Assembly (NCBI GenBank): GCA_043767805.1
Contig: JAYUGC010000131.1
Location: forward strand, 1-26,935
Direction of reading: 5' to 3'
From: Pseudomonadota bacterium
GTDB lineage: Bacteria; Bdellovibrionota; FAC87; UBA2466
DNA length: 26,935 nt
Shown piece by piece: positions 1 through 26,013 of this stretch. Below the pieces are notes generated by a model. That model saw only the letters and a list, made by a program, of their open reading frames with translations, did not search any database and had not been told where the DNA came from. Positions within the stretch are counted from its first letter, which is position 1; each line of letters starts with the position of its first letter. A program made the position numbers and the translations under genes.

Positions 1-609
1 GCCCAAAAGATAGTTCGAAGGAATCGCAAAATTCAGATTTTGCCCTTTACGGATCAGCGCAAAGGAGATTCCGATCACCTCGCCGTTCACGTTCAGCACG
101 GGTCCGCCGCTACTCCCTTTCGATATAGGCGCTGAAATCTGCAATACAGACGATTCCTCACTTCCGCGCACGGAGCTGACCAAGCCATCCGTAAAGGTGC
201 CACTCAACCCACTCGGGCTGCCGGCCACGTAGATTTTATCCCCGACGCTTACCTCGTTGCTCGTGGCGACCTTCAACGGTGCCGTTTCAGCATCATCGAC
301 TTCGATAAGGGCAAGGTCGTTGCCCTTATCGAAAGCGATGATATTCGTAATGTCCTTCGTGCCAACTCCGTCGAAAGGCTCGATGCGACCGGACTGAGCA
401 TCTTCAATCACATGATGGTTCGTCACCACCACGTTCCTCATGATGAAGAAGCCAGAGCCGACGACCGTGTCCCCGTCCTTGTTGGTCGTGTAGATCGTGA
501 CCACCGAGGGAAGGGTGCTCGCTGCGATTTCTTTCGCGGTCTTCGCGTAGATTTTCCCAGGCTGAAGGCAAACGAGTGCCATCAGCGCCATTAAGCGCAC
601 GTGCTTCAT
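1..609 (-). CDS. Secreted trypsin-like serine protease (S1C/HtrA-like protease domain), 3' end runs off the window
   Basis: Not in the ORF track; translated by hand from ATG at 609 with AGGAG upstream: MKHVRLMALMALVCLQPG (signal-like)...GSGF...VTNHHVI...NDLALI...ISKGSSGGPVLN..GEVIGI...NFAIP. His/Asp/Ser triad motifs are present and the frame is open to base 1. Confidence 0.9.
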   Translation of the reverse strand, partial: MKHVRLMALMALVCLQPGKIYAKTAKEIAASTLPSVVTIYTTNKDGDTVVGSGFFIMRNVVVTNHHVIEDAQSGRIEPFDGVGTKDITNIIAFDKGNDLALIEVDDAETAPLKVATSNEVSVGDKIYVAGSPSGLSGTFTDGLVSSVRGSEESSVLQISAPISKGSSGGPVLNVNGEVIGISFALIRKGQNLNFAIPSNYLLG

Positions 610-627
610 AGTTATCTCCTGTTAAAG

Positions 628-1752
628 TTAGCCGACTAAGAGGCCAGTTTCCCGGCCGCGTTCTTTGCGAAAGCTCATGCCCGTGCCCAGCGCTCCGGGG
701 TGGAGGCGCTCGTGAATCTCACGGGCGGTGAGCGTTGAGAGGGACTCTGGAAGCAGCGAATGCCGAGCTACGCCCGCGTCCATTTCGGTGAGGAGCACTT
801 GCCCCGACTCCAAGTTGAAAGTCTGCGGTAGAGCGGGCAGCACTTCGAGCCAGCCCCGGTTCTCTTGCGAAACCGTCAAATAAAAAGCGTCGTCTTGATC
901 GACGGGCACGCAAACGATGCCCATCTTCTCGCCGACAAAAGCGCCAGTGTCGCGCTCTTCTTGGGAGGAAAAGCGCAAGACCGCCACTTTCGAGTTCGTT
1001 ACTACCGCACTCGGCTGAGGCCCGAGCCCGATGACGCTACCGACGGTGCCATCGCCCGTTCCCCGGCAAACGATGCGAACGCCGGTAAGCTTTGCGTAAC
1101 TGACCGCGCCGTGGTGCAAAACCTTCGCGCCACTGCGAGACAAAGTGATGATGGCGTCGTACGGCACTTTTGCCATGGGTTTTGCCTGAGGCACCACATA
1201 AGGATCCGCCGTGTAAACGCCGGGGACGTCTGAGAAGATCTCGCACTCACCGGCCCCCAGCATCGACGCCAAGATGACCGCCGACAAATCGGAGCTGTTA
1301 CGACCGAGCATGGTGATTTGCCCGTCCGCGTTCACGGCCTGGCCGCCCGCGACGACCACAACCTTGTGGTTCATGAAGGCCTTCTCCAAAGCGGAGGAGT
1401 CCGTGCCCAGGATAGAAGCCCGCGTGTGCTTAGAGTCCGTGAGAATCCCGACCTGATAGCCCGTGAAATGCGTCGCGGGGATTTTTTCCGCTTCCAAAGC
1501 CGCGCGCATCAAACAAGCCGCGGTCATCTCGCCCGTGGCCAGCAACGAATCGGTCAAAGCCGAAGACATTTCCGGGTTCACGGAAAGCCCGGCCTCTTGG
1601 ATACGCCCCGTAGTTCCCGACATGGCGCTGACCACGACCACCAGCCGATCCGTGTCGGTGAGCAGGCGTGATCCCAAGTAACGCGCGATTTCCCGATAGC
1701 TCTCCATCTTGGGAAACGAAGAGCCGCCAAATTTAAGCACCCGTGTCTTCAT
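628..1752 (-). CDS. lysC: Aspartate kinase family protein (cluster-associated, divergent C-terminus)
   Basis: VLKFGGSS, VVVVSAM, LATGE, LGRNSSDLSA, DVPGVYTADP and GAKVLH motifs; 2 nt downstream of asd. Confidence 0.88.
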   Translation of the reverse strand: MKTRVLKFGGSSFPKMESYREIARYLGSRLLTDTDRLVVVVSAMSGTTGRIQEAGLSVNPEMSSALTDSLLATGEMTAACLMRAALEAEKIPATHFTGYQVGILTDSKHTRASILGTDSSALEKAFMNHKVVVVAGGQAVNADGQITMLGRNSSDLSAVILASMLGAGECEIFSDVPGVYTADPYVVPQAKPMAKVPYDAIITLSRSGAKVLHHGAVSYAKLTGVRIVCRGTGDGTVGSVIGLGPQPSAVVTNSKVAVLRFSSQEERDTGAFVGEKMGIVCVPVDQDDAFYLTVSQENRGWLEVLPALPQTFNLESGQVLLTEMDAGVARHSLLPESLSTLTAREIHERLHPGALGTGMSFRKERGRETGLLVG

Positions 1753-1754
1753 AC

Positions 1755-2780
1755 TTACCTCCCGACGACTTTCTCCGCGATTTGAATGGCGTTTAGCGCC
1801 GCTCCCACTCTCAAATTATCCGCGACGACCCAGCTCCAGAAAGCCGTGAGGCTTTGCGGATCGAGGCGAACGCGCCCGACATGCACATGATTGCTGGAGG
1901 ACAGCATCCGAGGCGTCGGGTAGTCGGACGTGGTCTGCGAGTCGTACACGATGATCTCTTCGCCGCTCTTGATGACCTTTAGCAATTCGCCGCGATCGAG
2001 CTTCTGCTTCGTCTCGACGTAAATCGCTTCCGAGTGACCGTTCAAGACGGGCACGCGGACGCAAGTCGCAGTCAGCTTAAAGCCGGGGATACGCAAGATC
2101 TTTGCCGTCTCCTGCACCATCTTCTGCTCCTCCAGGGTGAAACCATTCTCCTGAAACACGTCGACCTGGGGGACGACGTTAAAGGCGAGAGGCTGCGGGA
2201 ACTTCTTCGATTCGAAAGGCGCGGAAGGATCTTTCATGAAACCCGCGATGCCGCGGTTCAACTCTTCCATGCCGGTCAACCCGCCCCCGGAAGCCGCTTG
2301 GTAGGTGCTCACGATGACGCGGTCGATGCCGAAAGCCTTCTCTATGACGTCCAGCAGGCGCACCATCTGAATGGTCGAGCAGTTTGGGTTTGCGACGATG
2401 CCGGACTTCGGGCGGGTCTTCAAAAGATCGCCGTTTACTTGCGGCACGACCAGAGGGCTATCCGGATCCATGCGATGAGCGTTGGTGTTATCGATGACCA
2501 AGGCGCCTTGGCCCGCGGCCCGGCTCGCCCAAATCTTACTCGTGCCGGTTCCGGCCGAGAAGAAGGCGATGTCGGTCTTGGAGAAATCGAAAGTCTCGAG
2601 ATCTTCCACCACGTAGTCTTTGCCGCGGAAGGGAATCTTGGTGCCGGCCGAGCGCTTAGAGGCAACGAGCTTCATTTCCGAGAAAGTGAAGTTACGCTCC
2701 TGCATCAGCGTCATGAGCTCTTTACCGACGGCGCCCGTGGCTCCGACGATGGCGACTCTGGGGTTCATTCCGTTAAGCAT
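1755..2780 (-). CDS. asd: Aspartate-semialdehyde dehydrogenase
   Basis: GATGAVG Rossmann motif, catalytic [39 protein letters not shown]. Confidence 0.96.
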
Positions 2781-3678
2781 TTTTGACTCCTAAAGTTTTG
2801 CGCTCGGCCTTGAAAAGATCCGAGAATAATTGGGTACCGGGCTTCTTCAAGGCCACGTAACTCGAGGCGATGATGAGAAGCCCTCCGAAGACCGTCGGCA
2901 AGGCCACCGCTTCCCGGAAGAACAACACACCGAAGACGATGGTCGAGAGCGTGTAGACGTATTGCAAGATTCCGGCGACGGCCGCCTTAACCGTCTGAAG
3001 CGCTTTAAAGTACATCAAGTAGGGCACCGCGGTGTGAAAAACTCCCATGGTAACGAGGACCGCCCACTGGGTTCCGGTCAATGGCGCCGAGATATGGCTC
3101 AAGCCCACCGGGAGGAAGAGCAGAGCTCCCACGGTCGTCTGAAACAGGGTGATGGCCAAGGCTGGAAGGTCCTTTAAGTAACGGCCGAGTACCGTCACCT
3201 GCGAGAAGAGCGCCGCCGCGACCATGGCGTAGAGGCAACCGGGGTCGACGTTACTCAAATGGAGGCCCTTCGCCGCCAAGATGAAGACGACTCCCAGGAA
3301 CGAGATCCCGATGCACATGACCTGACGGACCGTTGGCGACTCCTTCAAGAACACCATGGCCGAGAGAAGCACGAAGATGGGAGCGAGGTTATAGAGCAAA
3401 ATGGAGTTCGTGATCGTGGTCGTTAATACCGCCTTGAAAAAGAAGAACCAATTGGAGGCCATGAAAAGCCCGGTGAGGCACAATAGACCCAGGGTCTTGT
3501 TCCACCGAAGCAGTCCTTTCAGGGAGCCGCGGTACAAAACGACTCCGACAATCGCCAGAGCGCCTATCCCGCAGCGAAAAAGCACGATGCTTTCCGCGGG
3601 AAGGTTCGCCCAGCGGGCGAAGGCCGCGACACTACCCAGCATCACCTGGGAAATCGTTAGCATTAAATAACCGTTCAT
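2773..3678 (-). CDS. EamA/DMT family exporter
   Basis: 301 aa with about 10 hydrophobic segments and duplicated EamA halves (APIFV...FLKE; ...FFRE..); overlaps the asd start. Confidence 0.9.
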   Translation of the reverse strand: MNGYLMLTISQVMLGSVAAFARWANLPAESIVLFRCGIGALAIVGVVLYRGSLKGLLRWNKTLGLLCLTGLFMASNWFFFFKAVLTTTITNSILLYNLAPIFVLLSAMVFLKESPTVRQVMCIGISFLGVVFILAAKGLHLSNVDPGCLYAMVAAALFSQVTVLGRYLKDLPALAITLFQTTVGALLFLPVGLSHISAPLTGTQWAVLVTMGVFHTAVPYLMYFKALQTVKAAVAGILQYVYTLSTIVFGVLFFREAVALPTVFGGLLIIASSYVALKKPGTQLFSDLFKAERKTLGVKNA

Positions 3679-3692
3679 AACTTACGTCCTAT

Positions 3693-4853
3693 TTACATTT
3701 GGATCATGGTCCGAAGAGCTTCCCCTTCGGAGAGCAGCGCGACTTCCCCCATGGTAGGCGCGCGGCTGATCGTTTCAAAAACTTGCCCAATCGCATTGAG
3801 CAGTCCCCAGTTTTCGGCGTAGGGGCTCGGCCATCCGGGGCATCCGTTCTCGATGTCCCGCTGGCGGGTATAAAGGTAGTCCGCCCATTCGGGGCACCGC
3901 GCGTGGCGGTGGTGGTAATCGTGAACCGGCAAATCGCCCGTCAAGACCGCGACCCGAATCGGAAGGTGAAAGAACGCCATCCGCGCCGTCCACTTCGCCC
4001 AAGCGCCGAGCGAATCCGTCCGAGGCACCGCCTCGCCGACAAAACGGCCCGCGGTGAGCGTGCAAATCGTTTCCTTCGGCGTCGCCCCCGCTTTAGGCAC
4101 TTTCAGCCAGAAGTGGAGTGACGAGAAGTTGAGCAAAGCCGCGACGTGATAAGGCGCGGTCAAAGGCAAAACCCAGCCCACGAGAAAACCGGTCCAGCCG
4201 CCGAGATAAGTCACCATGCCGGGCAGCGCGCTATAGAAAAGGACCGCGCTCAAGCGGCGCAAAGGCGTGCCGGTCACGAAGTTCGCGAGCAGGCGGCCTT
4301 TCATAAACTTGCCGTGGAAGCGGGGAGACACCACCGTGTAGCGGAGTTGTCTCCACAACGCTTCGACGGTCATGCCAGGTTTGAAGCCTAGCTCGAGTAA
4401 AAACTTACAATCCGGATCCACGGGCGAAGCGAGGCGCTTCGTGTGATGGATCTCGACGTGCTCGTGGTAGTACGAGTCGAAGTGATCGACCAGGATCAAG
4501 GTCGTCAAAGCTTGGCCAATCAGGCGATCGATAAGGCGATGCCCGGTCAAAGCGTAATGCGCGCACTGGTGAGCGAGCGTCACTTGAATCTTTCGCGCGG
4601 AGCCCACGAGAATAATCCAGCAAGGCAGAATGCCGACCCAAGCGACGGGTCCCACCCGAAAGAGCCAGGAGGCAGTAACGGCACTTCCGAGGAGACCCGC
4701 CAAAGCGAGAACGACGTGCCCGATACCGTTCGAGCGCCACAAGGCGTTCTGACCCTGATGGGCTTTTCCGGTGAGAAGGGTGAGGGCGGGCTGCGCCCAA
4801 CGGGGCAGCCGCCGCATTCCTTCCCGCACGTCGAGGTTAGAGGACGGGTTCAT
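3693..4853 (-). CDS. Membrane fatty-acid-desaturase-superfamily diiron enzyme (probably a small-molecule desaturase/hydroxylase)
   Basis: Three His boxes HQCAH, HVEIHH and HDYHH with intervening hydrophobic segments; ATGA overlap with the mutase S gene. Confidence 0.85.
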   Translation of the reverse strand: MNPSSNLDVREGMRRLPRWAQPALTLLTGKAHQGQNALWRSNGIGHVVLALAGLLGSAVTASWLFRVGPVAWVGILPCWIILVGSARKIQVTLAHQCAHYALTGHRLIDRLIGQALTTLILVDHFDSYYHEHVEIHHTKRLASPVDPDCKFLLELGFKPGMTVEALWRQLRYTVVSPRFHGKFMKGRLLANFVTGTPLRRLSAVLFYSALPGMVTYLGGWTGFLVGWVLPLTAPYHVAALLNFSSLHFWLKVPKAGATPKETICTLTAGRFVGEAVPRTDSLGAWAKWTARMAFFHLPIRVAVLTGDLPVHDYHHRHARCPEWADYLYTRQRDIENGCPGWPSPYAENWGLLNAIGQVFETISRAPTMGEVALLSEGEALRTMIQM

Positions 4854-5269
4854 ACCGCTCTCCGCATCCGGCGCTCTTCGCTGAGCCGGTCGAGTAAAGG
4901 AAGAATCCCGGTGTGCGAGGGCAAAACGTGATCGACGCCGAGGGAGAAAAACCGGCGAAGGTCGCTCTCCTTCTTATCTGCGCCGACCGAGAGATTGCCG
5001 CCGATCAAAACGGGGCAACGGATGTCGCCGCATTGTTTGGCATCACGCAAACCTTGGAGATCGGAAGCGGCATGGCCGTTCAACGAGCCGATGAGCATCG
5101 CTTCGGCATCCGGATGATTTCTCGCGGCCTGGGCGAACTCGGTGACCGGCGTGCAGGCGCCGAGATTAACGACCTCGAAGCCCTTTTCACGGAGCCAGAA
5201 GGCGATCATATGATTTCCGACGACGTGGGCGTCGCTCGCGGTGACGCCCAGAATGACTTTTCTTTTCAT
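4850..5269 (-). CDS. glmS: Glutamate (methylaspartate) mutase S subunit, cobalamin-binding (MamA/MutS-type)
   Basis: DAHVVG (DxHxxG), GSLNGH and IGG B12-binding motifs; 139 aa; adjacent to the E subunit; AAGGAG RBS. The symbol refers to the mutase subunit, not glucosamine synthase. Confidence 0.93.
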   Translation of the reverse strand: MKRKVILGVTASDAHVVGNHMIAFWLREKGFEVVNLGACTPVTEFAQAARNHPDAEAMLIGSLNGHAASDLQGLRDAKQCGDIRCPVLIGGNLSVGADKKESDLRRFFSLGVDHVLPSHTGILPLLDRLSEERRMRRAV

Positions 5270-5284
5270 GTCCCGCTCCTTTGG

Positions 5285-6667
5285 TTAGTCGGACAGCCTC
5301 GCCGTCCGTTGCCGATAAAAATTGCCGCTGAAATACTGAATGTCTCGAAAGACACGCTCGATGCTGTCGTTACTGGCCTTTCCAGAGCAGATGAGTCTCG
5401 AGTTGCGCTGCTTCGTCTTCTCCGAGAAAGGAAGCTTTCCCGGGTTCAGGTACCGGATGGCGCCTTTGCTGTCTCTCGCCGGAATCACTTCCGACTTCGC
5501 GTGCCGGCTCGTACTGAACGGCATATCCAACCTGCCGACTCGAAACGCTCGCGCGATGGCTTCCATTCGATTGGGCTCGGCGAGAACCGGCTCCACCAGT
5601 TCTTCGACTTCGCGCCGGATCCAGTAAGCTTCCTCTTCAACCCTTCCATCCTCTAGACTGATGAAGTCCAGCATCGGGAAGGCCGCCATCTTCGCGGTGA
5701 GTATCCCCTCGGCATTCGACATTGCATTTGGGATGCCAAAAGCTTCTTGGTTCGTTTTCGTGATGAGCTTCGTTGCCCGCCCCAGCTTCGCGGTCAGTGA
5801 GCCGTAGAAAATCAAAGAGTCGGCTTCCACGCGATCTTTTGGGAAGGCTCCCATGAACTCGTGTAGCACCGGGAACACCTCCACATCCTTGGGGAGGTAG
5901 TCCCGAGCTAGACCACGAATCGCATGGAGTGCGGCCACGTCCTGAATGAGATTGCCGCCTTGGGGGTAGGCAACGGACAGGCATTTCACTCCGGCACTCG
6001 TCGCTAAAATTGCCTCGAACAGCGTTAAGGCGAGACTGATGGAAGGGGGAACGAGGACGGCGGATAGCGTTCCGAACAACTCTCTATCGATGAGGATGCC
6101 CGCAAGCGCGAGCTCACCACAGACGCGATCGACGTAATCCCAAGCCTTTAACGACTCGAGGATAGGGACGTCTTTCGCATAGGGCAGGTTGTAACAGATG
6201 CCTCCGCCTTCGAACGAAGTTATCCCGGCCGCCACCGCGGTCTCGAAGAGGAGCCTCGCGTCCGGAGAGCCGTGGCGCACTTCCAAGGGTGCGTCCACGG
6301 ACGCTTCAAGCGCGCGGCCTTTCATCCAGCCGTGATTGACGAGGGGATATCCATTGAGTTGAGAGGGGTCTTTCTTGAGAACTTCTCCTCCCCGCTGAAA
6401 CTGTTTGAGGCGCGTGTAGGAGTCGATGGTGATGGAAAGAATGTCGGGTTGTGCCGTCTTCTCAATGTCCTGGAGTAACTGAACCATGGGCCCGTGCCCG
6501 CCGACACCGCAACGGGGCTGGAACAACAGCTTGCCATTGCGATCTGCCGCGCGAAGCACTTGGGCGACTGTAGGCTTCGTTCTCCGCCGAAGAAACGCAT
6601 TGGTCTCTTCGAACGTCGGTAGAGAGAAACCGGATTCTTGTACTAGTTGTTTTCTTTCCTCTTGCAT
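5285..6667 (-). CDS. glmE: Glutamate (methylaspartate) mutase E subunit (MamB/MutE-type)
   Basis: QPRCGV, ITIDSYTR, LNGYPLVNHG, VRHGSPDARLL, SFEGGGICYNLPY and RELFGTL motifs; ATG at 6667 is 6 nt from GGGAG. Confidence 0.93.
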   Translation of the reverse strand: MQEERKQLVQESGFSLPTFEETNAFLRRRTKPTVAQVLRAADRNGKLLFQPRCGVGGHGPMVQLLQDIEKTAQPDILSITIDSYTRLKQFQRGGEVLKKDPSQLNGYPLVNHGWMKGRALEASVDAPLEVRHGSPDARLLFETAVAAGITSFEGGGICYNLPYAKDVPILESLKAWDYVDRVCGELALAGILIDRELFGTLSAVLVPPSISLALTLFEAILATSAGVKCLSVAYPQGGNLIQDVAALHAIRGLARDYLPKDVEVFPVLHEFMGAFPKDRVEADSLIFYGSLTAKLGRATKLITKTNQEAFGIPNAMSNAEGILTAKMAAFPMLDFISLEDGRVEEEAYWIRREVEELVEPVLAEPNRMEAIARAFRVGRLDMPFSTSRHAKSEVIPARDSKGAIRYLNPGKLPFSEKTKQRNSRLICSGKASNDSIERVFRDIQYFSGNFYRQRTARLSD

Positions 6668-6724
6668 CAACGACTCCCGGAGGGTCGCTAGAGCAAGGGT
6701 CGTGCCGAAAGATGTTTCGAGGTG

Positions 6725-7516
6725 TTACGGGAGCTCGCCGCGAGAGACGAGAACGGCTTCACCGGAGATGAAAGTGCGCTCTTCTTCGGGGCGCACGCGA
6801 ACGAATCCGCCGCGCTTGGAAGACTGATACGCGCGCATCTCGGGTTTTTTCAGTTTCTTTTTCCAGTAAGGCCCGAGGAGGCAATGCGCGGCGCCGGTCA
6901 CGGGATCTTCATTCACGCCGATTTTAGGGCCGAAGAAGCGCGAAACGAAATCCGTTTTGCCGGTGCCTTTGGCCGTTACGATTACGGCGCGAGGCTCCAG
7001 AGCTTTCAGCTTTTCGATGTCGGGCGTGAGCAACCGGACTTTGTCTTGATTGCCGATATTGACGAGGAGAAAGCCCGCCGAATTAATGCCCACGTAGCTG
7101 GGAGCTTCGGTGAGACCGAGCGCTTCGCGAAGCCCTTTCGGCTCATCGCAAACCGTCGGCGCGAGGGTCGGAAAATCCAAGGTGATCCACGTGTCGTTCT
7201 TGCTGGCGGTGAGCCGCCCGCTCAGCGTATCGAATTGGAGTTTCTGATTGCCGGGAACGATGCCTTCGCTCCAGAGCACGAAGGCCGAGGCGAGAGTCGC
7301 ATGCCCACAAAGATCGATTTCGATCGTGGGGGTGAACCAGCGCAGGCCCCACGATCCGGCTTCCTTTTTCAGGAAGGCGGTCTCCGAGAGATTCATCTCG
7401 GCGGCGACCTTTTGCATCCACGCATCCGTCCGATTCTCATCGAGAATGACGACGGCGGCGGGGTTTCCGCGGTTGGCTTCCTTGGTAAAGGCATCGACCA
7501 GAAATAGACGGTTCAT
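6725..7516 (-). CDS. PhzF/YddE family isomerase-epimerase (DAP-epimerase fold)
   Basis: VDAFT, GNPAAV, EMNLSETAF, LRWFTP, EIDLCGHATLA, EDPVTG; ATGA overlap with the regulator stop. Confidence 0.93.
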   Translation of the reverse strand: MNRLFLVDAFTKEANRGNPAAVVILDENRTDAWMQKVAAEMNLSETAFLKKEAGSWGLRWFTPTIEIDLCGHATLASAFVLWSEGIVPGNQKLQFDTLSGRLTASKNDTWITLDFPTLAPTVCDEPKGLREALGLTEAPSYVGINSAGFLLVNIGNQDKVRLLTPDIEKLKALEPRAVIVTAKGTGKTDFVSRFFGPKIGVNEDPVTGAAHCLLGPYWKKKLKKPEMRAYQSSKRGGFVRVRPEEERTFISGEAVLVSRGELP

Positions 7517-8901
7517 GGCGTTTCTTTACGGTCTTCTCCGGCTCGATACAAGCCAAATCTCTTCATGATGGAGTGGAGCGTGCTCGGCGATATTCCGAGG
7601 CGCTGCGCCGCCTGGAATTTGTTCTTGGACGACTGAATAATCGTCTCGATGTGCTTTCTCTCTTCGGACTCGTGTTTCGTTTTTAGCTCTGTGAGAGAGA
7701 GGCTCGCCGTGACGGTCTCCGTCGAGAAAAACTTCGCGTCGAGCTGCTCGGGGGTGACCTTATCGTCTGGCGATTCGGTCAAAAGGCGATAGACCGTGTG
7801 CTCGAGCTCTCGCACGTTCCCGGGCCAGTCGTAGGTCTCGAGCTGGCGGACGGTGCGCATCAAAAACGACTTCTTGTTGCCGGTCTCTTCCGCGATTTTG
7901 CGGCAAAAGTGAGCGACCAACGGCTCGATGTCCTCGGGGCGATCTTTCAAGCGCGGTAGACAAAGGCTCAGGACGTTCAAGCGATGATAAAAATCGAGGA
8001 GGAACTCACCGCGATCGGCGCGCGCGCCGAGATCGGGCTTCGCCGCCGCAATCAAACGGAAGCGGACGTCGATCTCTTTCGCTCCACCCACGCGGCGGAT
8101 TTTCTTCTCCTGAAATACGCGCAAAAGTTTCGCTTGAGCCGTTAGGGAAAGCTGATGGATCTCGTCGAAAAAAACGGTCCCGCCGTTCGCGGTCTCGAGG
8201 ATGCCTTTCTTCTCGGCATTGGCTCCCGTGAAGGCACCTTTCTCGTAACCAAATAATTCCGATTCCAAAAGATCCGTACTGCCCTGATACGCGGCGCAGT
8301 TAATCGCAAAGAAGGGACCTTTCTTCGAATCGTGAAGCGCGCGAGCGACGAGTTCTTTACCGGTTCCGGTGTCGCCCAAAATCAAAACGTTTTGATTGTT
8401 CTCTCGGTAGAGCACCGCTTTACGAGCTAGCTCGGCGAGAGATTCGGATCGTCCCACCATGCTGATGCTCGCGATGATTTTTTCCTTCTCGGTCATCGCG
8501 AGATTCGTGTTCAGCGTGCGGTAGGTGTGATCGTACTTAAGGCACCAGTTGCGTACCGTCTTCAAAAACGTTTCGAAGTCGCCTTCCTTTTCGATGAACT
8601 CGACGGCGCCCGCGCGCCAGGTTTTCTGCATGGCGAGGCGAGAGGAATCGCCGGAATATATTAAAACGTACGCTTCCGGGTTCACGCGGCGGATGGCTTC
8701 CGCCGTTTCGGCGCCGTCCATGTCGCGCATCTGGTAATCCACGATGACCAGCGCATATTCCTGCGGGTTCTTACGGACCTTCTCGACGCCCTCCGCGCCA
8801 CTCTGGGCCGCGTGAACGGAGTAGCCGTTTCGCTCTAAGAGGAAACGGGTCGCCTGAAGATTCAGCGGGTCGTCATCGATCAGCAGTAAGCGGTACGCCA
8901 C
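7513..8901 (-). CDS. Sigma54-dependent response regulator (NtrC/AtoC-type: receiver, AAA+, Fis HTH)
   Basis: Receiver LIDDD..IVDY..YSG..IEK; Walker A GDTGTGKE; ESELFG; GAFTGA; Walker B FFDEI; WPGNVREL; HTH AAQRLGISPSTL. GTG at 8901 is preferred over TTG at 8907 on RBS spacing. Confidence 0.96.
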   Translation of the reverse strand: MAYRLLLIDDDPLNLQATRFLLERNGYSVHAAQSGAEGVEKVRKNPQEYALVIVDYQMRDMDGAETAEAIRRVNPEAYVLIYSGDSSRLAMQKTWRAGAVEFIEKEGDFETFLKTVRNWCLKYDHTYRTLNTNLAMTEKEKIIASISMVGRSESLAELARKAVLYRENNQNVLILGDTGTGKELVARALHDSKKGPFFAINCAAYQGSTDLLESELFGYEKGAFTGANAEKKGILETANGGTVFFDEIHQLSLTAQAKLLRVFQEKKIRRVGGAKEIDVRFRLIAAAKPDLGARADRGEFLLDFYHRLNVLSLCLPRLKDRPEDIEPLVAHFCRKIAEETGNKKSFLMRTVRQLETYDWPGNVRELEHTVYRLLTESPDDKVTPEQLDAKFFSTETVTASLSLTELKTKHESEERKHIETIIQSSKNKFQAAQRLGISPSTLHSIMKRFGLYRAGEDRKETP

Positions 8902-8936
8902 GTTCAACTCCCTCCCGATCGATGTCGGGAGTGAGA

Positions 8937-8974: not shown

Positions 8975-9001
8975 TGCGAAAGTTCGCAGCGAACCTTCGC
9001 A
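8975..9001. promoter_or_regulatory. Tandem palindromic boxes 1 and 2 (candidate enhancer/UAS)
   Basis: TGCGAAAGTTCGCA (8975-8988) and AGCGAACCTTCGCA (8988-9001). Confidence 0.7.
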
Positions 9002-9023
9002 AAGTTTGAGGCAAATTATGGTA

Positions 9024-9040
9024 ACCTAATGAAATTAGGT
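9024..9040. repeat. AT-rich perfect inverted repeat ACCTAAT-GAA-ATTAGGT
   Basis: 7-bp arms with a 3-nt spacer, lying between the TGCGAA boxes. Confidence 0.55.
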
Positions 9041-9073
9041 GCTTATTATTCCTATCTGGTTTTTTGGAAAATC

Positions 9074-9087
9074 TGCGAAGGTTCGCA
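9074..9087. promoter_or_regulatory. Palindromic box 3 (candidate UAS)
   Basis: TGCGAAGGTTCGCA; its left flank TGGAAAATC nearly duplicates TGGAAATC before box 1. Confidence 0.7.
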
Positions 9088-9127
9088 ATGAATCCAGGCT
9101 CGGAGGTCTTTTGAGAGCAGGGCGACT

Positions 9128-9141
9128 TGCGAAGGATCGCA
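9128..9141. promoter_or_regulatory. Palindromic box 4 (candidate UAS)
   Basis: TGCGAAGGATCGCA, one mismatch, about 85 bp upstream of the -24 element. Confidence 0.65.
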
Positions 9142-9222: not shown

Positions 9223-9240
9223 CTGGCACGGTGCGTGCTT
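9223..9240 (+). promoter_or_regulatory. Sigma54 (-24/-12) promoter of the rightward operon
   Basis: CTGGCACGGTGCGTGCTT: GG at 9225-9226 and GC at 9237-9238 separated by exactly 10 nt; TGGCACG is consensus; divergent from a GAFTGA activator gene. Confidence 0.85.
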
Positions 9241-9368
9241 AGTGTCCCTCCCGAGGCTCGCAGCTGGGGCTGCTAGCTAGGCTGACTAAAAGAGGCACCT
9301 TGGCACGGTGACAAAGGAGGGCACTTTCCTCCCGCGCGCTACGGCCGAGGCAAGAGGGAGTAGTTGAG

Positions 9369-10139
9369 ATGTCGATTCAGGAATACACGCCGACCCAGGA
9401 AAAAATCTTCAAGATGGACCACCCCGAGGTGGTCTCCACGACCGCGCTTTTTCACGCCGAGGTGATGAGCCGCCAGATTTTCGAGCGCTTCGAGATCACG
9501 GCCGGGGACCAGTCTTACGAGAAAGCCGTAGCTGTGGCTGGCGCCTGGCACGCCTTTTCCGAGTTCATGCCCTGGTTTCTCTGTGAAGCTTCCGCCCGCG
9601 TGAGCAATAACCGGATTCGCCACTACGTCATCCAAACCGCCTTCGAAGAGCTCGGCATGCGCCGGGAAGACGAGATTCACCACGAGATGTTCTGGTCCGC
9701 CGCCGAAGAAGTCGGCATCGGCCGCAACGTACGCGATCGTTACAGCCGCGATCCGAAAGTGATGGGCGCCCTTCAGATGTTGCGCGAGACGATTCTCAAC
9801 ACGACCTCGGACGCCGAGATTCTCGGCCTTCTCCTGGGACTCGAGATGCCCGCGGAAGAGAACATCGATACGGTGTTCTTCTCCATGAGCTACTCGGAAG
9901 AAGCCGAGCGCCGTCTCGGCGAAACTCACTTTTTCAAGATTCATAAGATGATCGAGATCGAGCACGTACGGCTCACCATCTCGAACTATCTGCGGTTTTG
10001 CGGAACGGATAAGAGGAAGGCCCAGTACCGGACCGGCTTCGAGGCCGGCACCCATTTCTGGGACAAGTTCTGGACCGCCTGCGGAGATTTGGTCCTTCAG
10101 GAGAAGCGCGGAGGATCCACGATTGCCCGGACGGCGTGA
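9369..10139 (+). CDS. Heme-oxygenase-like diiron oxidase (HDO; iron-containing redox enzyme / CADD-PqqC-like fold)
   Basis: FEELG..x..H (EIHHEMF), LGLE, and FFKIHKMIEIEH with H-x3-E-x2-H spacing; helical 256 aa; GAGGGAG RBS. Confidence 0.8.
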   Translation: MSIQEYTPTQEKIFKMDHPEVVSTTALFHAEVMSRQIFERFEITAGDQSYEKAVAVAGAWHAFSEFMPWFLCEASARVSNNRIRHYVIQTAFEELGMRREDEIHHEMFWSAAEEVGIGRNVRDRYSRDPKVMGALQMLRETILNTTSDAEILGLLLGLEMPAEENIDTVFFSMSYSEEAERRLGETHFFKIHKMIEIEHVRLTISNYLRFCGTDKRKAQYRTGFEAGTHFWDKFWTACGDLVLQEKRGGSTIARTA

Positions 10140-11289
10140 ATTCAAGCGGCTCCTCGTCGCGGCCTTCGTGTCGCAGACGGGGAGCCATTTTCTCACTCTT
10201 TCGATCACGGCCTTCGTGTATCTTGCGTCGGACTCCGCCCCGAAGGCCGCCATGGTCTTCGTCCTTTCCTATTTGCCCTCCGTTTTGATGAGCGGCACTT
10301 TCGGCCCTTGGGTCGATAAACGCATTTCCCGCCGGTTCCTCATCGCCAACGAAATGGTTTCGATTGCGGCGAGCGTGGCTTGCGGGCTCGCGCTCTGGGC
10401 AAAAGCTCCGCTCTTCGTCCTGGGATTTTTCATCGCGCTTCGCTCGCTCTGCCTCTTTACGAGCCGGTCGGGTCTCACCAAGTGGGTGAAAACGATTTCT
10501 CCTCCCGAAGTGCAGAAGGCGCGCATTCAGCTTTTCTTTCTCACCTTTTTCTTATCGACCGGCGTGTCGGGAATTCTGGCCGCGGTCGTACTCTCGAAGC
10601 TTTCCATTTTAACCATCATTGCTTTCGACGCGGCGACGTACCTGCTCAGTGCCTTACTCCTTTCGCGCCTTCAAGAATTGCCGAAAGCCGCAAGCGGACC
10701 GGCTGCGGTGGGTTTCCCGATCACGCGTGTGCTCGCGGATCCTTTGCTTCGCCCTGCCGCCGTCTCGGTGGCCTTTTCGCAAGCGCTCTTTCAAGGCGCC
10801 TATTCGGTTTTGGTGACCTATCTTCCCGTGCATCAGCTGGGACTCGGCCTTTCGGGCGTGGGTTTCTTTCAGCTCGCCGCGACGCTCGGCATCTTGGCGG
10901 GCTTCGTCGTTAACTGGAAGTCGAAGCGCCTCGTGTCTACGGAACTTTTGGCGAACACCGCGGGAGTGGCTCTGCTTTCTCTCGCGCAGATTTCGTCGTT
11001 GCCGGCGGCCCTCGTCTCTTTCTGGGTCCTCAACTTTGCCTATGAATGCGTTTGGCTCAATAAGAGCAGTGAGTTTTTTCAGGCGATGCCAGAGAACGAG
11101 AGCGCGAGCCTTCAATTTGCACTCAACTCGGGCGCCTCTTTCCTGATGGCCATCTTCACTCTCCTTTATGCTTTCGGCATTGAAGCTTGGGGCATTGGCT
11201 CGGCGCTTCCCGCCATAGCGATCGCGGGTGGCTTGGCTTGGGCGTTTCTGCTCCTGAAGAAACCCGTCCCCGCGGAGGCTCGGCCATGA
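10123..11289 (+). CDS. MFS transporter (probable exporter)
   Basis: About 12 TM segments; motif-A-like GPWVDKRISRR; FDAATYLLSA as in DHA3/macrolide-efflux-like MFS; TTG start after GGAGG. Confidence 0.88.
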   Translation: MPGRREFKRLLVAAFVSQTGSHFLTLSITAFVYLASDSAPKAAMVFVLSYLPSVLMSGTFGPWVDKRISRRFLIANEMVSIAASVACGLALWAKAPLFVLGFFIALRSLCLFTSRSGLTKWVKTISPPEVQKARIQLFFLTFFLSTGVSGILAAVVLSKLSILTIIAFDAATYLLSALLLSRLQELPKAASGPAAVGFPITRVLADPLLRPAAVSVAFSQALFQGAYSVLVTYLPVHQLGLGLSGVGFFQLAATLGILAGFVVNWKSKRLVSTELLANTAGVALLSLAQISSLPAALVSFWVLNFAYECVWLNKSSEFFQAMPENESASLQFALNSGASFLMAIFTLLYAFGIEAWGIGSALPAIAIAGGLAWAFLLLKKPVPAEARP

Positions 11290-12533
11290 CGATTCTTTTC
11301 TTGGAGCCCAAAGGCACGGCCCTCGAAGTCATTCGAGAGGCGAAGCGCCAAGGGTATAAAGTCGTCGCGCTCGTTTGCGATCCGACGATGCTCTCCGGTA
11401 CTCCGCTCCCTTATCGCACGGCGATTGCCTCCATCGATAAGACGGTGACGCTGAAATCTTGGTCCGACTGGGAAGCGCTTCTCGCCGCCGCCAAAACTTT
11501 GAACCGAGAAGACGCGGTCAAAGGCGTCTACTTCAGTCTCGATGCGGCGGCCGTTGCGGGAACGCGCTTGAGGAAGCATTTTAAGCTTCCTTCTCCCACC
11601 CCAGAGACGATGGCTCTGGTCCTCGATAAATACCGGCTTCGCCACGCGCTACGGGAAAAGGGGCTGTCCAGTCTCATGAGCTACCGAGGCGAAGAGGCGG
11701 ACGCTTGGACTTCGTGGAAACTCAAAGGCGAAGCCTATTTCAAGCCCGTGAATGGATCGTTTAGCGCGTTCGTCGAAAAATGCGCTTCGCTGGAGGATTT
11801 GCACCGCGCCCGTAAAGCTTGGTCGTCCATGGGAGCCGAGACGCCCGCGATGCTGCGTGACTACATCGGTGCCGGTAACGGCTACCTCGTCGAAGAAGCC
11901 TTCGACGGCGAGCTGATGTCTCTCGAAGGCATTTGCGTGAACGGTGAGTACAAAGCGCTCGGGCTTACCTCGCGCATTCTGTACTCGAAGAATCCCGTCG
12001 TCGAAATGGGCTCCGTTTTTCCGTACCCTCACAAGCTCGCCGCGAAAATCCAGGAATTCGTTCAAAGGGTGCATGAAGCGGTTGGTTTTACCGAGGGCCC
12101 GAGCCACGTCGAGCTCATGGTGGATGCTTCCGGCCATATGGAAATCATCGATTTCAACGCCCGCTTCATCGGCGCGGACGTAATGCAGTCGATTAATTTT
12201 GCGCTCGGCATTAAGATTCAGGAAGCGTTGCTCGATTTCGCCGTCGGAAAGGCGCCGAAGCTCGTTTACGAGCAAAAGAAGTTTGCTTGCCTGCAATACG
12301 CCTTGCCGCCGCAGGCGCTCGAAGTGAAGACGCTCGAATTTCCCAAGGGCGACGACGTGGTCTTTCATACCGCCTATATCGAGGCCGGACAAAAAGTGGA
12401 AAGCACCGAGCGGCAAATCGATTATTTGGGCTGCTATCTCACGCTGGGCGACAGTTTTGAGGACGCGCTGGCCAGAAGCCACGCGCACCGAGAAGGTTTG
12501 ATTCTCAACGGAAAGCTGAAGGGATCGTTCTAA
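11286..12533 (+). CDS. ATP-grasp ligase (L-amino-acid ligase-like)
   Basis: DKYRLR, FKPVNGSFS, LVEEAFDGELMSLEG, GPSHVEL, IIDFNARFIG, C-terminal YLGCY. True start is ATG 11286 (ATGA overlap, GGAGG RBS), not 11187. Confidence 0.88.
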   Translation: MTILFLEPKGTALEVIREAKRQGYKVVALVCDPTMLSGTPLPYRTAIASIDKTVTLKSWSDWEALLAAAKTLNREDAVKGVYFSLDAAAVAGTRLRKHFKLPSPTPETMALVLDKYRLRHALREKGLSSLMSYRGEEADAWTSWKLKGEAYFKPVNGSFSAFVEKCASLEDLHRARKAWSSMGAETPAMLRDYIGAGNGYLVEEAFDGELMSLEGICVNGEYKALGLTSRILYSKNPVVEMGSVFPYPHKLAAKIQEFVQRVHEAVGFTEGPSHVELMVDASGHMEIIDFNARFIGADVMQSINFALGIKIQEALLDFAVGKAPKLVYEQKKFACLQYALPPQALEVKTLEFPKGDDVVFHTAYIEAGQKVESTERQIDYLGCYLTLGDSFEDALARSHAHREGLILNGKLKGSF

Positions 12534-13243: not shown

Positions 13244-13247
13244 TTTC

Positions 13248-22266: not shown

Positions 22267-22311
22267 GGGGTATTCTTCCCAAGGACTGCGCCCTATGGCA
22301 ATCTCAGTCCT

Positions 22312-23393: not shown

Positions 23394-23510
23394 AGTCAAT
23401 CCTACTTATTCTCCGAGGTAAGCCCGGGGAATGTTACGACAAGCGCGTGAGTACCCATAAACCATCGATTATGTTGTAGTAATGCCAATCGAAAGGTTTA
23501 GTGTGGAAGT

Positions 23511-25944: not shown

Positions 25945-26013
25945 GAGCCCAAGGTACTTTTCGTGAAGGGTAGCGTCAACGCGGGCTTGAGACCGAAGTG
26001 ATAGAATAGGCGA

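What the first reader, a model, noticed from the sequence alone, without database searches (positions are those of the whole stretch)
628..6667. Glutamate mutase + aspartate kinase + Asd: a likely route to 3-methylaspartate semialdehyde (a 'methyl-aspartate pathway')
Seen: mutase E and S lie in one operon with an aspartokinase and asd, and the window has no methylaspartate ammonia-lyase or glmL/mutL. Established: glutamate mutase gives threo-3-methylaspartate and is recruited in natural-product clusters (vicenistatin, friulimicin, nikkomycin). Inference: Glu -> 3-MeAsp -> 3-MeAsp-4-phosphate -> 3-MeAsp semialdehyde, leading to 3-methylhomoserine (4-hydroxyvaline), its lactone, or a desaturated/cyclised analogue. 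I know of no described pathway that runs 3-MeAsp through dedicated kinase and Asd copies.
Basis: partly seen in the sequence, partly recalled or inferred. Interest (0 to 1): 0.85.

Follow-up and report, generated by a model that had tools for sequence, protein, structure and literature searches.

The report
Glutamate mutase joined to aspartate-reducing enzymes
A small accessory gene cluster couples a B12-dependent glutamate mutase with its own aspartate-kinase-like and semialdehyde-dehydrogenase enzymes and a membrane oxygenase, probably to make and export an unusual branched amino acid or dipeptide by a route that has not been described.

Summary
On the minus strand, tightly packed, lie a sigma-54 response regulator, PhzF-like protein, MutE, MutS, a membrane desaturase/hydroxylase-like di-iron protein, an EamA transporter, Asd and an aspartokinase-like kinase.

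The kinase and Asd are extra copies. The genome has two canonical aspartokinases and another Asd. It has no MutL. Its methylaspartate ammonia-lyase sits in a separate cluster that 16 mutase-less relatives also carry.

The link between mutase, Asd and kinase recurs independently:
- two other genomes of the phylum
- a Mesorhizobium plasmid, with a class-III aminotransferase and an L-amino-acid ligase
- Streptomyces plasmids
- four natural MutS-Asd fusion proteins

The kinase belongs to a distinct clade. It keeps the residues that hold the amino and carboxyl groups of aspartate but replaces contact residue Phe184 with Gly or Ala.

Best reading (about 0.55): Glu is converted to 3-methylaspartate, then to its 4-phosphate, then to its semialdehyde. 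The oxygenase acts at some step. The product is exported, or first ligated by the neighbouring sigma-54-controlled L-amino-acid ligase operon.

Against this, most rhizobial copies of the kinase/Asd pair have no mutase nearby, so plain aspartate-semialdehyde supply remains a serious rival. No paper describing such a route was found.

The parts
1..609 (-). HtrA/trypsin-like serine protease, cut by the contig end, 18 nt downstream of the kinase gene. Whether it belongs to the cluster is uncertain.
   Evidence: PF13365, 99 bits. No counterpart was seen next to the cluster in G059. In G256 the contig ends there.
628..1752 (-). Aspartokinase-like kinase of a distinct 'cassette' clade, 374 aa.
   Evidence: PF00696, 140 bits. 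It falls below every NCBIfam aspartokinase cut-off, e.g. TIGR00657 at 202 against 208.7. It is 40% identical to the genome's canonical AK. LysC contact residue Phe184 is replaced by Gly. The AF2 model has pLDDT 92.6 and superposes on AK structures.
1755..2780 (-). Aspartate-semialdehyde dehydrogenase, second copy.
   Evidence: TIGR01296, 401 bits, above the 324 cut-off. Residues matching Cys135, His274, Glu241, Arg267, Arg102 and Gln162 are all kept. It is 37.5% identical to the housekeeping Asd on C144 and 55-57% identical to the Asd part of the MutS-Asd fusions.
2773..3678 (-). EamA/DMT family transporter, presumed exporter.
   Evidence: PF00892, 126 bits. An EamA gene also stands before Asd-AK in S. 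cattleya pSCAT (28% identity) and beside the G256 cluster.
3693..4853 (-). Membrane di-iron desaturase/hydroxylase-like oxygenase.
   Evidence: PF00487, 38 bits. The nearest curated family is GntB arginine gamma-hydroxylase, E 1e-15, far below its cut-off. Three His boxes are invariant in 9 sequences. It is adjacent to MutS-MutE in 7 of 9 actinomycete loci and 27 of 80 metagenome loci.
4850..5269 (-). Glutamate mutase small (B12-binding) subunit, MutS.
   Evidence: NF002612 gives 107.5 bits against a 110 cut-off; PF02310 also matches. The D-x-H-x-x-G motif is visible in the alignment. It is 56% identical to the N-terminal domain of fusion protein P0167.
5285..6670 (-). Glutamate mutase large subunit, MutE. 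The likely start is the ATG at 6667.
   Evidence: PF06368, 404 bits. TIGR01503 gives 367.6, below the 390.1 cut-off. E is 4.5e-79 to the solved glutamate mutase epsilon subunit. Seven substrate-site residues are conserved.
6692..6707 (-). Sigma-54 -24/-12-like element, 22-37 nt upstream of mutE.
   Evidence: One mismatch to TGGCAC-N5-TTGCW. The window has 2 such sites against 0.52 expected. G256 has a perfect site at the same position before its mutE.
6725..7516 (-). PhzF-family isomerase-like protein.
   Evidence: PF02567, 221 bits. A PhzF-like gene (30% identity) follows the kinase in G059. None was seen in the G256 locus.
7513..8907 (-). NtrC-type sigma-54-dependent response regulator.
   Evidence: Response_reg, Sigma54_activat and HTH_8 domains. 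It overlaps the PhzF gene by 4 nt.
8975..9141 (.). Four palindromes, TGCGAA-N2-TTCGCA, probably enhancer-binding sites.
   Evidence: These are 4 of the 5 matches in the window and all matches with one mismatch or fewer. They cluster 85-250 nt upstream of the sigma-54 element at 9224.
9224..9239 (+). Sigma-54 -24/-12-like element, 130 nt upstream of the HDO gene.
   Evidence: TGGCACGGTGCGTGCT, one mismatch.
9369..10139 (+). Haem-oxygenase-like di-iron oxidase (HDO). The overlapping minus-strand ORF at 9339-10253 is probably spurious.
   Evidence: PF14518, E 1.7e-11. The only PDB match is 4-chloro-allylglycine synthase, E 0.004. It was not found in related loci.
10123..11289 (+). MFS transporter.
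   Evidence: PF07690.
11187..12533 (+). L-amino-acid ligase (ATP-grasp). The likely start is near 11283.
   Evidence: PF13535. Best solved relatives are L-amino acid ligase BL00235 (E 1.3e-11) and BacD. ATP-grasp ligases also flank the mutase in G256, Mesorhizobium AR07, L047 and L046.
12533..13243 (+). Short-chain dehydrogenase/reductase.
   Evidence: PF00106, 106 bits.
13230..16198 (+). Periplasmic-binding-protein-like sensor (13230-14420) and histidine kinase (14417-16198), presumed partners of the response regulator.
   Evidence: PF13458 and HATPase_c. An HK (46% identity) and a PBP also stand beside the G256 cluster.

Best explanation
This is an accessory, sigma-54-regulated biosynthetic cluster.

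1. Glutamate mutase (MutE/MutS) rearranges L-glutamate to (2S,3S)-3-methylaspartate.
2. A dedicated kinase of a special aspartokinase clade phosphorylates the 4-carboxyl.
3. The dedicated Asd reduces it to 3-methylaspartate-4-semialdehyde.
4. The membrane di-iron oxygenase hydroxylates or desaturates the branched skeleton, before or after these steps.
5. The product leaves through EamA. Alternatively it is joined to a second amino acid by the L-amino-acid ligase of the divergent operon and leaves through the MFS pump, as a bacilysin-like dipeptide antimetabolite or signal.

Shown: gene identities, conserved linkage, fusion proteins, extra-copy status and the altered kinase pocket. Inferred: the substrates of the kinase, Asd and oxygenase, the order of steps and the product.
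For: **1. Conserved array.** The colinear MutE-MutS-FADS-Asd-AK array is present in G059 and G256 at 47-63% identity. That makes 3 of 401 genomes of the phylum, each in a different family.

**2. Independent linkage elsewhere.**
- Mesorhizobium sp. AR07 plasmid: MutE, class-III aminotransferase, L-amino-acid ligase, MutS-Asd-AK.
- Streptomyces sp. NBC_01006 plasmid: MutS-MutE-x-Asd-AK-oxygenase.
- S. cattleya pSCAT: MutS-MutE-x-EamA-Asd-AK.
- S. numidicum plasmid: MutS-Asd-AK.

**3. Fusion proteins.** Four 90%-identity protein clusters are MutS-Asd fusions. Their identity to the window is 56% (MutS part) and 55-57% (Asd part).

**4. Extra copies.** Two canonical AKs pass the family cut-off and a second Asd is present. 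G059 and G256 also have a second Asd.

**5. Mutase substrate site.** It is intact in 10 of 10 sequences (R66 could be judged in 9).

**6. Kinase pocket.** Glu119 and Arg198, which hold the alpha-amino and alpha-carboxyl groups, are kept. Contact residue Phe184 is Gly or Ala in 22 of 22 clade members and Phe in 3 of 3 canonical AKs.

**7. No Asp-semialdehyde consumer.** None of the genes found in all three arrays is a known aspartate-semialdehyde consumer, so sequential action is the economical reading.

**8. Regulation.** Sigma-54 elements precede both the mutE operon and the ligase operon, here and in G256.
Against: - The same AK/Asd pair is widespread on rhizobial symbiosis plasmids without a mutase. 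In R. binae it lies between nifHDKEN-fdxB and fixNOQP. Only 3 of 114 plasmid records have MutS next to Asd. Only 4 of 67 records with the kinase also have a MutE match on the same record, and 1 of those 4 (R. sullae) is about 53 kb away and of the canonical type. The pair may therefore simply make aspartate semialdehyde, and Phe184Gly need not exclude aspartate.
- Asd shows no change at the six catalytic and binding residues checked.
- Actinomycete FADS-MutS-MutE loci work without a dedicated AK/Asd: 0 of 9 genome loci and 0 of 80 metagenome loci have one, and no cassette-type AK was found in 5 of 5 such genomes.
- No enzyme that would take the aldehyde further is conserved in all three arrays.
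- No biochemical data exist.
Confidence: 0.55

Rival explanations
1. Precursor supply. The kinase/Asd pair only makes ordinary aspartate semialdehyde from aspartate, as a dedicated copy outside the control of the housekeeping pathway. The mutase and oxygenase make a separate 3-methylaspartate-derived unit. The two units meet later, for example at the L-amino-acid ligase.
For: The pair occurs without any mutase in most rhizobial plasmids. Asd passes the curated Asd equivalog cut-off and keeps all residues checked. The kinase keeps 4 of the 5 aspartate contact residues, plus Arg198. Specialised aspartokinases for precursor supply are known from ectoine clusters (recalled, not checked here).
Against: No aspartate-semialdehyde-consuming enzyme (aminotransferase, aldolase or homoserine dehydrogenase) is among the genes found in all three arrays. 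MutS-Asd fusion proteins and the repeated mutase-Asd-AK adjacency in three phyla are more than a supply role would predict. The Phe184 change is clade-wide.
Confidence: 0.25
2. Reverse, catabolic direction. The membrane oxygenase oxidises a methyl group of an imported branched amino acid such as valine to the aldehyde. Asd and the kinase then run backwards, giving 3-methylaspartate plus NADPH and ATP. The mutase converts 3-methylaspartate to glutamate, which is its favoured direction.
For: A Leu/Ile/Val-type periplasmic binding protein with a histidine kinase and a sigma-54 regulator stands beside the cluster here and in G256. That architecture is common for nutrient-induced operons. The thermodynamic argument is from recalled knowledge of the mutase and aspartokinase equilibria.
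Against: Exporter-type transporters and L-amino-acid ligases recur next to the mutase in several lineages. The Mesorhizobium version has an aminotransferase and a ligase but no oxygenase. Distribution is sporadic, as for secondary metabolism: 3 of 401 genomes, and not found in the congeners searched.
Confidence: 0.07
3. Classical methylaspartate pathway. The mutase feeds 3-methylaspartate to the ammonia-lyase encoded elsewhere, for glutamate catabolism. The neighbouring Asd and kinase are unrelated.
For: The genome does encode a bona fide methylaspartate ammonia-lyase (TIGR01502, 381 bits, above the 286 cut-off) on contig C173.
Against: The lyase was found in 17 of 401 genomes of the phylum and MutE in 4 of 401, with only G000 having both. 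The lyase sits in its own M24-BCCT-oxygenase-ALDH-MAL cluster, which is conserved in the mutase-less congener G171. G059 and G256 have the mutase cluster but no lyase (0 of 2). No MutL was found.
Confidence: 0.03

Closest known systems
Glutamate mutase recruited in natural-product clusters (vicenistatin-type macrolactams, friulimicin-type lipopeptides)
   Same: Two-subunit B12 mutase with an intact glutamate/3-methylaspartate site. The window's MutE is 56-59% identical to Streptomyces MutE sequences that lack the desaturase partner. It is only 38-41% identical to catabolic-type enzymes. Reviews that name glutamate mutase and 3-methylaspartate in macrolactam biosynthesis appeared in search listings only.
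   Different: In those pathways 3-methylaspartate is decarboxylated or loaded on an NRPS (recalled). Here it is linked to a kinase, Asd and a membrane oxygenase. No PKS or NRPS is in the window.
Aspartate pathway enzymes LysC and Asd, and specialised aspartokinases of ectoine clusters
   Same: Same folds and catalytic residues. It is an extra copy placed inside a pathway-specific operon.
   Different: The kinase forms a separate clade that falls below all curated aspartokinase cut-offs. In it Phe184 is Gly or Ala, Gly199-Gly200 is Asn-Ser, and the C-terminal region is shorter. It is linked to a mutase, not to ectABC.
Rhizobial symbiosis-plasmid asd-'uridylate kinase' pair
   Same: Same kinase clade (38-43% identity, full length) and same Asd type (48-50% identity), adjacent and co-directional. 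In Mesorhizobium sp. AR07 it is preceded by MutS, with MutE, an aminotransferase and a ligase nearby.
   Different: Most rhizobial copies have no mutase on the same plasmid and no desaturase-like gene. No statement of their function was met: in the two papers opened, only passages matching the search terms were read, and one of those merely lists Asd and LysC in sym-plasmid inter-gene regions.
Bacilysin-type dipeptide antimetabolite clusters (L-amino-acid ligase plus MFS exporter)
   Same: The divergent operon encodes an L-amino-acid ligase related to BL00235 and BacD, an MFS pump and an SDR.
   Different: The presumed warhead pathway is unrelated to prephenate chemistry. The ligase substrates are unknown.
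GntB, the membrane desaturase-like L-arginine gamma-hydroxylase of guanitoxin biosynthesis
   Same: It is the nearest curated family to the window's oxygenase, and a precedent for this fold acting on a free amino acid.
   Different: The score is 57.6 bits against a 380 cut-off, so the window protein is not a member. Its substrate is certainly different.
Clostridial methylaspartate (glutamate fermentation) pathway
   Same: The mutase subunits are homologous.
   Different: There is no MutL, no adjacent ammonia-lyase, and different partners.

Membership tests
Glutamate (methylaspartate) mutase, EC 5.4.99.1 | Large subunit of the Met_asp_mut_E family | tested here: met
   PF06368, 404.5 bits against a 26.6 cut-off. 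E is 4.5e-79 to the solved glutamate mutase. The stricter equivalog TIGR01503 scores 367.6, below 390.1.
Glutamate (methylaspartate) mutase, EC 5.4.99.1 | Small B12-binding subunit with the D-x-H-x-x-G motif | tested here: met
   PF02310 matches. NF002612 scores 107.5, just under 110. The S-D-A-H-V-V-G stretch is seen in the alignment.
Glutamate (methylaspartate) mutase, EC 5.4.99.1 | Substrate-site residues matching GlmE R66, R100, R149, H150, E171, Y177 and Y181 (their roles are recalled from the structure literature) | tested here: met
   All seven are conserved in the window and in all sequences compared: 10 of 10, with R66 judged in 9.
Glutamate (methylaspartate) mutase, EC 5.4.99.1 | Catalysis of Glu to threo-3-methylaspartate | not testable with these tools
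   Needs an enzyme assay.
Aspartate kinase, EC 2.7.2.4 | Amino-acid-kinase fold of the aspartokinase type | tested here: met
   PF00696, 140 bits. The AF2 model has TMq 0.67-0.82 to aspartokinase structures.
Aspartate kinase, EC 2.7.2.4 | Score above a curated aspartokinase cut-off | tested here: not met
   The best scores are 214.6 against 376 (NF005154) and 202.2 against 208.7 (TIGR00657). The two other AKs of the genome pass.
Aspartate kinase, EC 2.7.2.4 | Full set of residues contacting L-aspartate in E. coli LysC: Ala40, Thr45, Glu119, Phe184, Ser201, plus Arg198 | tested here: not met
   Five are kept. Phe184 is Gly in the window and Gly or Ala in 22 of 22 clade members. The residue list comes from passages of PMC5481828.
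Aspartate kinase, EC 2.7.2.4 | C-terminal ACT regulatory domains | tested here: inconclusive
   Pfam finds no ACT match. The model's residues 249-350 form alternating strands and helices, and the whole chain aligns with aspartokinases.
Aspartate-semialdehyde dehydrogenase, EC 1.2.1.11 | Equivalog score and catalytic/binding residues Cys135, His274, Glu241, Arg267, Arg102 and Gln162 | tested here: met
   TIGR01296, 401 bits against 324. All six residues are kept in 20 of 20 sequences. Substrate preference was not tested.
Membrane fatty-acid desaturase/hydroxylase superfamily | Three histidine boxes and a Pfam FA_desaturase match | tested here: met
   PF00487, 38.1 bits against 29.7. The stretches HQCAH, EHxxxHH and HDYHH are invariant in 9 sequences.
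GntB arginine gamma-hydroxylase | Equivalog score | tested here: not met
   57.6 bits against 380.
Methylaspartate (glutamate fermentation) pathway operon | Mutase together with MutL and methylaspartate ammonia-lyase | tested here: not met
   No MutL in the genome. The lyase is on another contig in a cluster shared with mutase-less relatives.
L-amino-acid ligase dipeptide clusters | ATP-grasp ligase of the Lal family next to an exporter | tested here: met
   3VOT (L-amino acid ligase) E 1.3e-11, and BacD E 2.6e-5. An MFS gene is adjacent. The product was not tested.

The most novel reading that the evidence does not exclude
The mutase-kinase-Asd module defines an undescribed branch point, 3-methylaspartate-4-semialdehyde, that parallels the aspartate pathway. 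Different lineages would turn it into different branched C5 amino acids.

- **Rhizobia:** a class-III aminotransferase would give 2,4-diamino-3-methylbutanoate. I recall this amino acid being reported long ago from Lotus nodules, but could not verify it in the library.
- **This bacterium:** its phylum is Bdellovibrionota, inferred from a source's label on the G256 homologue. Here a membrane oxygenase and an L-amino-acid ligase would make an exported, oxidised dipeptide antimetabolite.

The whole Phe184-to-Gly kinase clade would then be methylaspartate kinases rather than aspartokinases.
Probability: 0.4. Interest if true: 0.85.

Novelty: new variant of a known kind. Interest (0 to 1): 0.72.

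Why it matters
If the kinase/Asd pair really accepts 3-methylaspartate, several things follow:
- A textbook two-step activation and reduction has been copied onto a B12-rearranged skeleton, which opens a family of branched non-proteinogenic amino acids.
- Hundreds of rhizobial and actinomycete genes now labelled 'uridylate kinase' or 'aspartate kinase' would get a function.
- It would offer a candidate gene set for a nodule-specific amino acid that I recall but could not verify.
- It would point to an unexplored exported metabolite in this bacterium, whose phylum (Bdellovibrionota, so perhaps predatory) is inferred only from a source's label on the G256 homologue.
- The Phe184Gly signature would be a simple marker for genome mining.

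All of this is directly testable with a coupled NADPH assay.

Tried and rejected
**Literature.**
- Seven full-text searches for the gene combination or the predicted intermediates and products found no paper on such a pathway.
- A search on 'aspartate-semialdehyde dehydrogenase', 'uridylate kinase', 'nifA' and 'symbiotic plasmid' gave two rhizobial papers. Only the passages matching search terms were read. None of those passages assigns a function to the asd/kinase pair.
- A search on GntB and guanitoxin gave listings only.
- A DOI look-up and one guessed PMC id for an old paper on the Lotus nodule compounds found nothing. That lead rests on recall alone.

**Earlier scan findings.** Three look-ups returned nothing.

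**Cluster membership look-up.** The query for the fusion proteins could not be made because the database was off. Their organisms and contexts are therefore unknown.

**Other dead ends.**
- Desaturase-like relatives at 30-35% identity lie beside histidine kinase, FIST and GGDEF genes and say nothing about this subfamily.
- The Atlas look-up only returned 'fatty acid desaturase'.
- The terminator and sigma-70 promoter scan was uninformative.
- A first spacing guess for the upstream palindromes missed them. The corrected pattern found them.
- The idea that the kinase lacks a regulatory domain was dropped after the fold model.
- The HDO gene was not found in any related locus, so it is not counted as core.
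- G296 has a canonical-type mutase with no Asd or AK within 9 kb of the mutase on either side.

**Cap reached.** The Streptomyces 'oxygenase' and several neighbours therefore remain unnamed.

Full report
**What is in the window.** The window is a whole 26,935-base contig, C131, of a 4.5-Mb genome rated 100% complete.

On the minus strand eight genes follow one another with gaps or overlaps of -8 to +57 nt:

| Gene | Coordinates |
|---|---|
| NtrC-type sigma-54 response regulator | 7513-8907 |
| PhzF-family protein | 6725-7516 |
| MutE | 5285-6667/6670 |
| MutS | 4850-5269 |
| Membrane fatty-acid-desaturase-like di-iron protein | 3693-4853 |
| EamA transporter | 2773-3678 |
| Asd | 1755-2780 |
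| Aspartokinase-like kinase | 628-1752 |

A protease fragment follows at 1-609.

Divergently, on the plus strand, lie six more genes:
- a haem-oxygenase-like di-iron oxidase (9369-10139), which a longer but family-less ORF on the other strand had hidden
- an MFS pump
- an ATP-grasp enzyme whose best solved relatives are L-amino-acid ligases (BL00235, E 1.3e-11; BacD)
- an SDR
- a Leu/Ile/Val-type periplasmic binding protein
- a histidine kinase

**Are the kinase and Asd spare copies, and does a catabolic route explain the mutase?**

The genome has two other aspartokinases that pass the family cut-off (C176 and C89), one other Asd (C144) and ArgC. The window copies are only 40% (AK) and 37.5% (Asd) identical to them.

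No MutL/GlmL was found. There is only one MutE.

A genuine methylaspartate ammonia-lyase exists on contig C173. It lies in its own cluster: an M24 hydrolase, a BCCT transporter, a HalD-like oxygenase, an aldehyde dehydrogenase and MAL. Three results separate it from the mutase:
- In 401 genomes of the phylum the lyase was found in 17 and MutE in 4. Only this genome has both.
- The lyase cluster is conserved at 69-81% identity in the mutase-less congener G171.
- The two other genomes that carry the mutase cluster have no lyase (0 of 2), and each has a second Asd.

**Is the linkage conserved?**

A search with the desaturase-like protein over 401 genomes of the phylum found it in three, including this one. 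The three belong to different families, and it was not found in the congeners searched. G256 and G059 both carry the colinear array MutE-MutS-FADS-Asd-AK at 47-63% identity. Their extra genes differ:
- G256 adds a divergent ATP-grasp plus EamA operon, a histidine kinase (46% identical to the window's) with a binding protein, a GNAT, a LysE exporter and a flavin monooxygenase.
- G059 adds a PhzF-like gene.

Six further contigs appear to hold close relatives of all three of FADS, Asd and AK.

**Linkage outside the phylum.**

*Asd search.* It turned up four protein clusters (P0164, P0167, P0172, P0201; 495-521 aa) that are natural fusions. An N-terminal B12-binding domain is 56% identical to the window's MutS. 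The Asd part is 55-57% identical to the window's Asd.

*Plasmid searches.* They found these arrangements:

| Record | Gene order |
|---|---|
| Mesorhizobium sp. AR07 pMspAR07d | MutE (51% identity), class-III aminotransferase, a transposase, L-amino-acid ligase, then MutS-Asd-AK. No desaturase-like gene. |
| Sinorhizobium numidicum plasmid | MutS-Asd-AK among transposases. The kinase matches in two pieces. |
| Streptomyces sp. NBC_01006 plasmid | MutS-MutE-x-Asd-AK-'oxygenase', with an ATP-grasp-like gene upstream |
| S. cattleya pSCAT | MutS-MutE-x-EamA-Asd-AK |

All these MutE sequences keep the seven residues that align with the glutamate/methylaspartate site of the solved enzyme. This includes the divergent Streptomyces sequences at about 30% identity. 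The residue roles are recalled; the mapping comes.

*Kinase tree.* The kinase clade is separate from canonical aspartokinases. Mutase-linked members sit in at least three of its deep branches. I take this as strong evidence that mutase, kinase and Asd work in one pathway.

**The other constant partner.** The closest MutE relatives in reference genomes are actinomycete, at 53-59% identity. In 7 of 9 such loci, and in 27 of 80 metagenome loci found with the desaturase-like protein, the order is FADS-MutS-MutE. None of these has AK or Asd nearby. Five such genomes have only canonical aspartokinases. Many of the remaining metagenome contigs are too short to judge.

Neighbours of this three-gene unit vary:
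- MFS pumps (6 loci)
- PF13454 flavoproteins (6)
- ferredoxin-reductase genes, with or without MOSC (5)
- PLP decarboxylases (3)
- ATP-grasp ligases (3)
- a class-III aminotransferase (1)
- EamA (1)

The oxygenase has all three histidine boxes. Its nearest curated family is GntB, which hydroxylates free arginine, but it scores far below that family's cut-off. The window therefore combines two modules that also occur apart: mutase plus oxygenase, and mutase plus Asd/kinase.

**What the enzymes' sequences say.**

*Asd.* It passes its equivalog cut-off and keeps the residues matching E. coli Cys135, His274, Glu241, Arg267, Arg102 and Gln162 in 20 of 20 sequences. The roles of Cys135, Glu241 and Arg267 come from passages of PMC5481828.

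*Kinase.* It falls below every curated aspartokinase cut-off. [quoted passage not shown] Ala40, Thr45, Glu119, Phe184 and Ser201 touch the substrate. I compared 22 members of the kinase clade with 3 canonical aspartokinases:

| LysC position | Clade (22 sequences) | Canonical AKs (3) |
|---|---|---|
| Ala40 | kept (Gly in 3) | Ala |
| Thr45 | kept | Thr |
| Glu119 | kept (Asp in the two Streptomyces-plasmid sequences) | Glu |
| Ser201 | kept | Ser |
| Arg198 | kept (Lys in the same two) | Arg |
| Phe184 | Gly in 20, Ala in 2 | Phe |
| Gly199-Gly200 | Asn-Ser (Asn-Ala in 1) | Gly-Gly |
| Thr195 | Met, Phe or Trp | Thr |

This fits an amino-acid substrate of the aspartate type with more bulk. 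I could not establish which substrate atom Phe184 faces.

A confident fold model (pLDDT 92.6) aligns over its whole length with aspartokinase structures. The short C-terminal region is therefore probably still ACT-like, although Pfam does not see it.

**Regulation.** The window has two matches to the sigma-54 consensus with at most one mismatch, against 0.52 expected.
- One lies 22-37 nt before mutE.
- The other lies 130 nt before the HDO-MFS-ligase operon. Four TGCGAA-N2-TTCGCA palindromes sit 85-250 nt upstream of it.

G256 has a perfect site at the same place before its mutE. A second site faces its ATP-grasp operon. These are the only two matches in 16 kb. The two operons thus look co-regulated by the adjacent two-component system.

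**Interpretation.** The most economical scheme runs as follows:

1. Glu is rearranged to 3-methylaspartate by the mutase.
2. 3-Methylaspartate is phosphorylated to its 4-phosphate by the kinase.
3. The 4-phosphate is reduced to the 4-semialdehyde by Asd.
4. The membrane oxygenase hydroxylates or desaturates the skeleton at an undetermined step.
5. The product is exported by EamA, or ligated to another amino acid and exported by the MFS pump.

The Mesorhizobium version gives the clearest chemical logic: semialdehyde, then aminotransferase, then a 2,4-diamino acid, then ligase. I recall that 2,4-diamino-3-methylbutanoic acid was reported from Lotus nodules. No paper in the library mentions it, so this is only a lead.

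I put 0.55 on sequential action of the kinase and Asd on a mutase-derived substrate.

**Evidence against, and rivals.**

The main counter-evidence is that the same kinase/Asd pair is common on rhizobial symbiosis plasmids with no mutase in sight:
- In R. binae it lies between nifHDKEN-fdxB and fixNOQP.
- Only 3 of 114 plasmid records have MutS beside Asd.
- Only 4 of 67 records with the kinase have any MutE match on the same record.

Chromosomes of those strains could not be searched. In those strains the pair may simply make aspartate semialdehyde, so the Phe184 change need not exclude aspartate. I therefore give 0.25 to a pure precursor-supply role.

A reverse, catabolic reading takes a branched amino acid to the aldehyde, then methylaspartate, then glutamate. 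It fits the binding-protein sensor but not the recurring ligases and exporters, nor the oxygenase-free rhizobial version (0.07).

The classical methylaspartate pathway is effectively excluded (0.03).

**Novelty.** Seven full-text searches on the gene combination and on the predicted intermediates found nothing describing such a route. Subscription journals and supplements were not searched.

All the parts belong to known families. The new elements are their combination, the kinase clade with its pocket change, and the MutS-Asd fusions. I class it as a new variant of a known kind: glutamate-mutase-dependent specialised amino-acid biosynthesis.

Noticed in passing
G000:C173:15176-21415 (L011 7177-13416): There is a second methylaspartate-related cluster: a DddP/ectoine-hydrolase-like M24 protein, a BCCT transporter, a HalD-like oxygenase, a betaine-aldehyde-dehydrogenase-like ALDH and methylaspartate ammonia-lyase. 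It is conserved in relatives that have no glutamate mutase. It looks like a catabolic route that reaches 3-methylaspartate through an aldehyde from an imported solute. The contig ends 300 nt after the lyase gene.
   Followed up: partly
Proteins P0164, P0167, P0172, P0201: These are natural fusions of a MutS-type B12-binding domain with a complete Asd. Their organisms and gene contexts could not be retrieved.
   Followed up: partly
L109 7979-10101 (Rhizobium binae plasmid p4): The same Asd plus kinase pair lies between nifHDKEN-fdxB and fixNOQP, with the kinase annotated 'uridylate kinase'. Dozens of Sinorhizobium, Rhizobium, Mesorhizobium and Bradyrhizobium plasmids carry it. None of the passages I read assigns a function to it.
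   Followed up: partly
window 9339-10253 (-) versus 9369-10139 (+): The longest ORF here, on the minus strand (304 aa), has no family match. The overlapping plus-strand ORF is a haem-oxygenase-like di-iron oxidase (PF14518). The minus-strand ORF is probably not a gene.
   Followed up: yes
L062, L067, L090, L093, L095, L096, L104 (metagenome loci): A sister group of the desaturase-like protein (30-35% identity) lies next to a histidine kinase gene in all seven loci. FIST-domain genes and response-regulator-GGDEF genes are also adjacent in four of them (L062, L067, L090, L093). There is no mutase. Its function is unknown.
   Followed up: no
window 20128-23399 (-): An 822-aa protein with a DUF455 (ferritin-like) domain at residues 132-366 is followed by a 268-aa protein with no family match. 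An M19 membrane dipeptidase lies at 24808-26124. None of these was examined further.
   Followed up: no
L111 13451-14582 (Sinorhizobium numidicum plasmid): The kinase gene after MutS-Asd matches in two pieces in different frames and is flanked by transposases. No MutE was found within 12 kb. It looks like a decaying copy of the module.
   Followed up: no
L047 2295-12436 and L070/L031 (metagenome loci): Some actinomycete-type FADS-MutS-MutE loci carry a group-II PLP decarboxylase. One also carries a class-III aminotransferase, an ATP-grasp ligase and an MFS pump. That set resembles the diaminobutyrate aminotransferase/decarboxylase pair.
   Followed up: no
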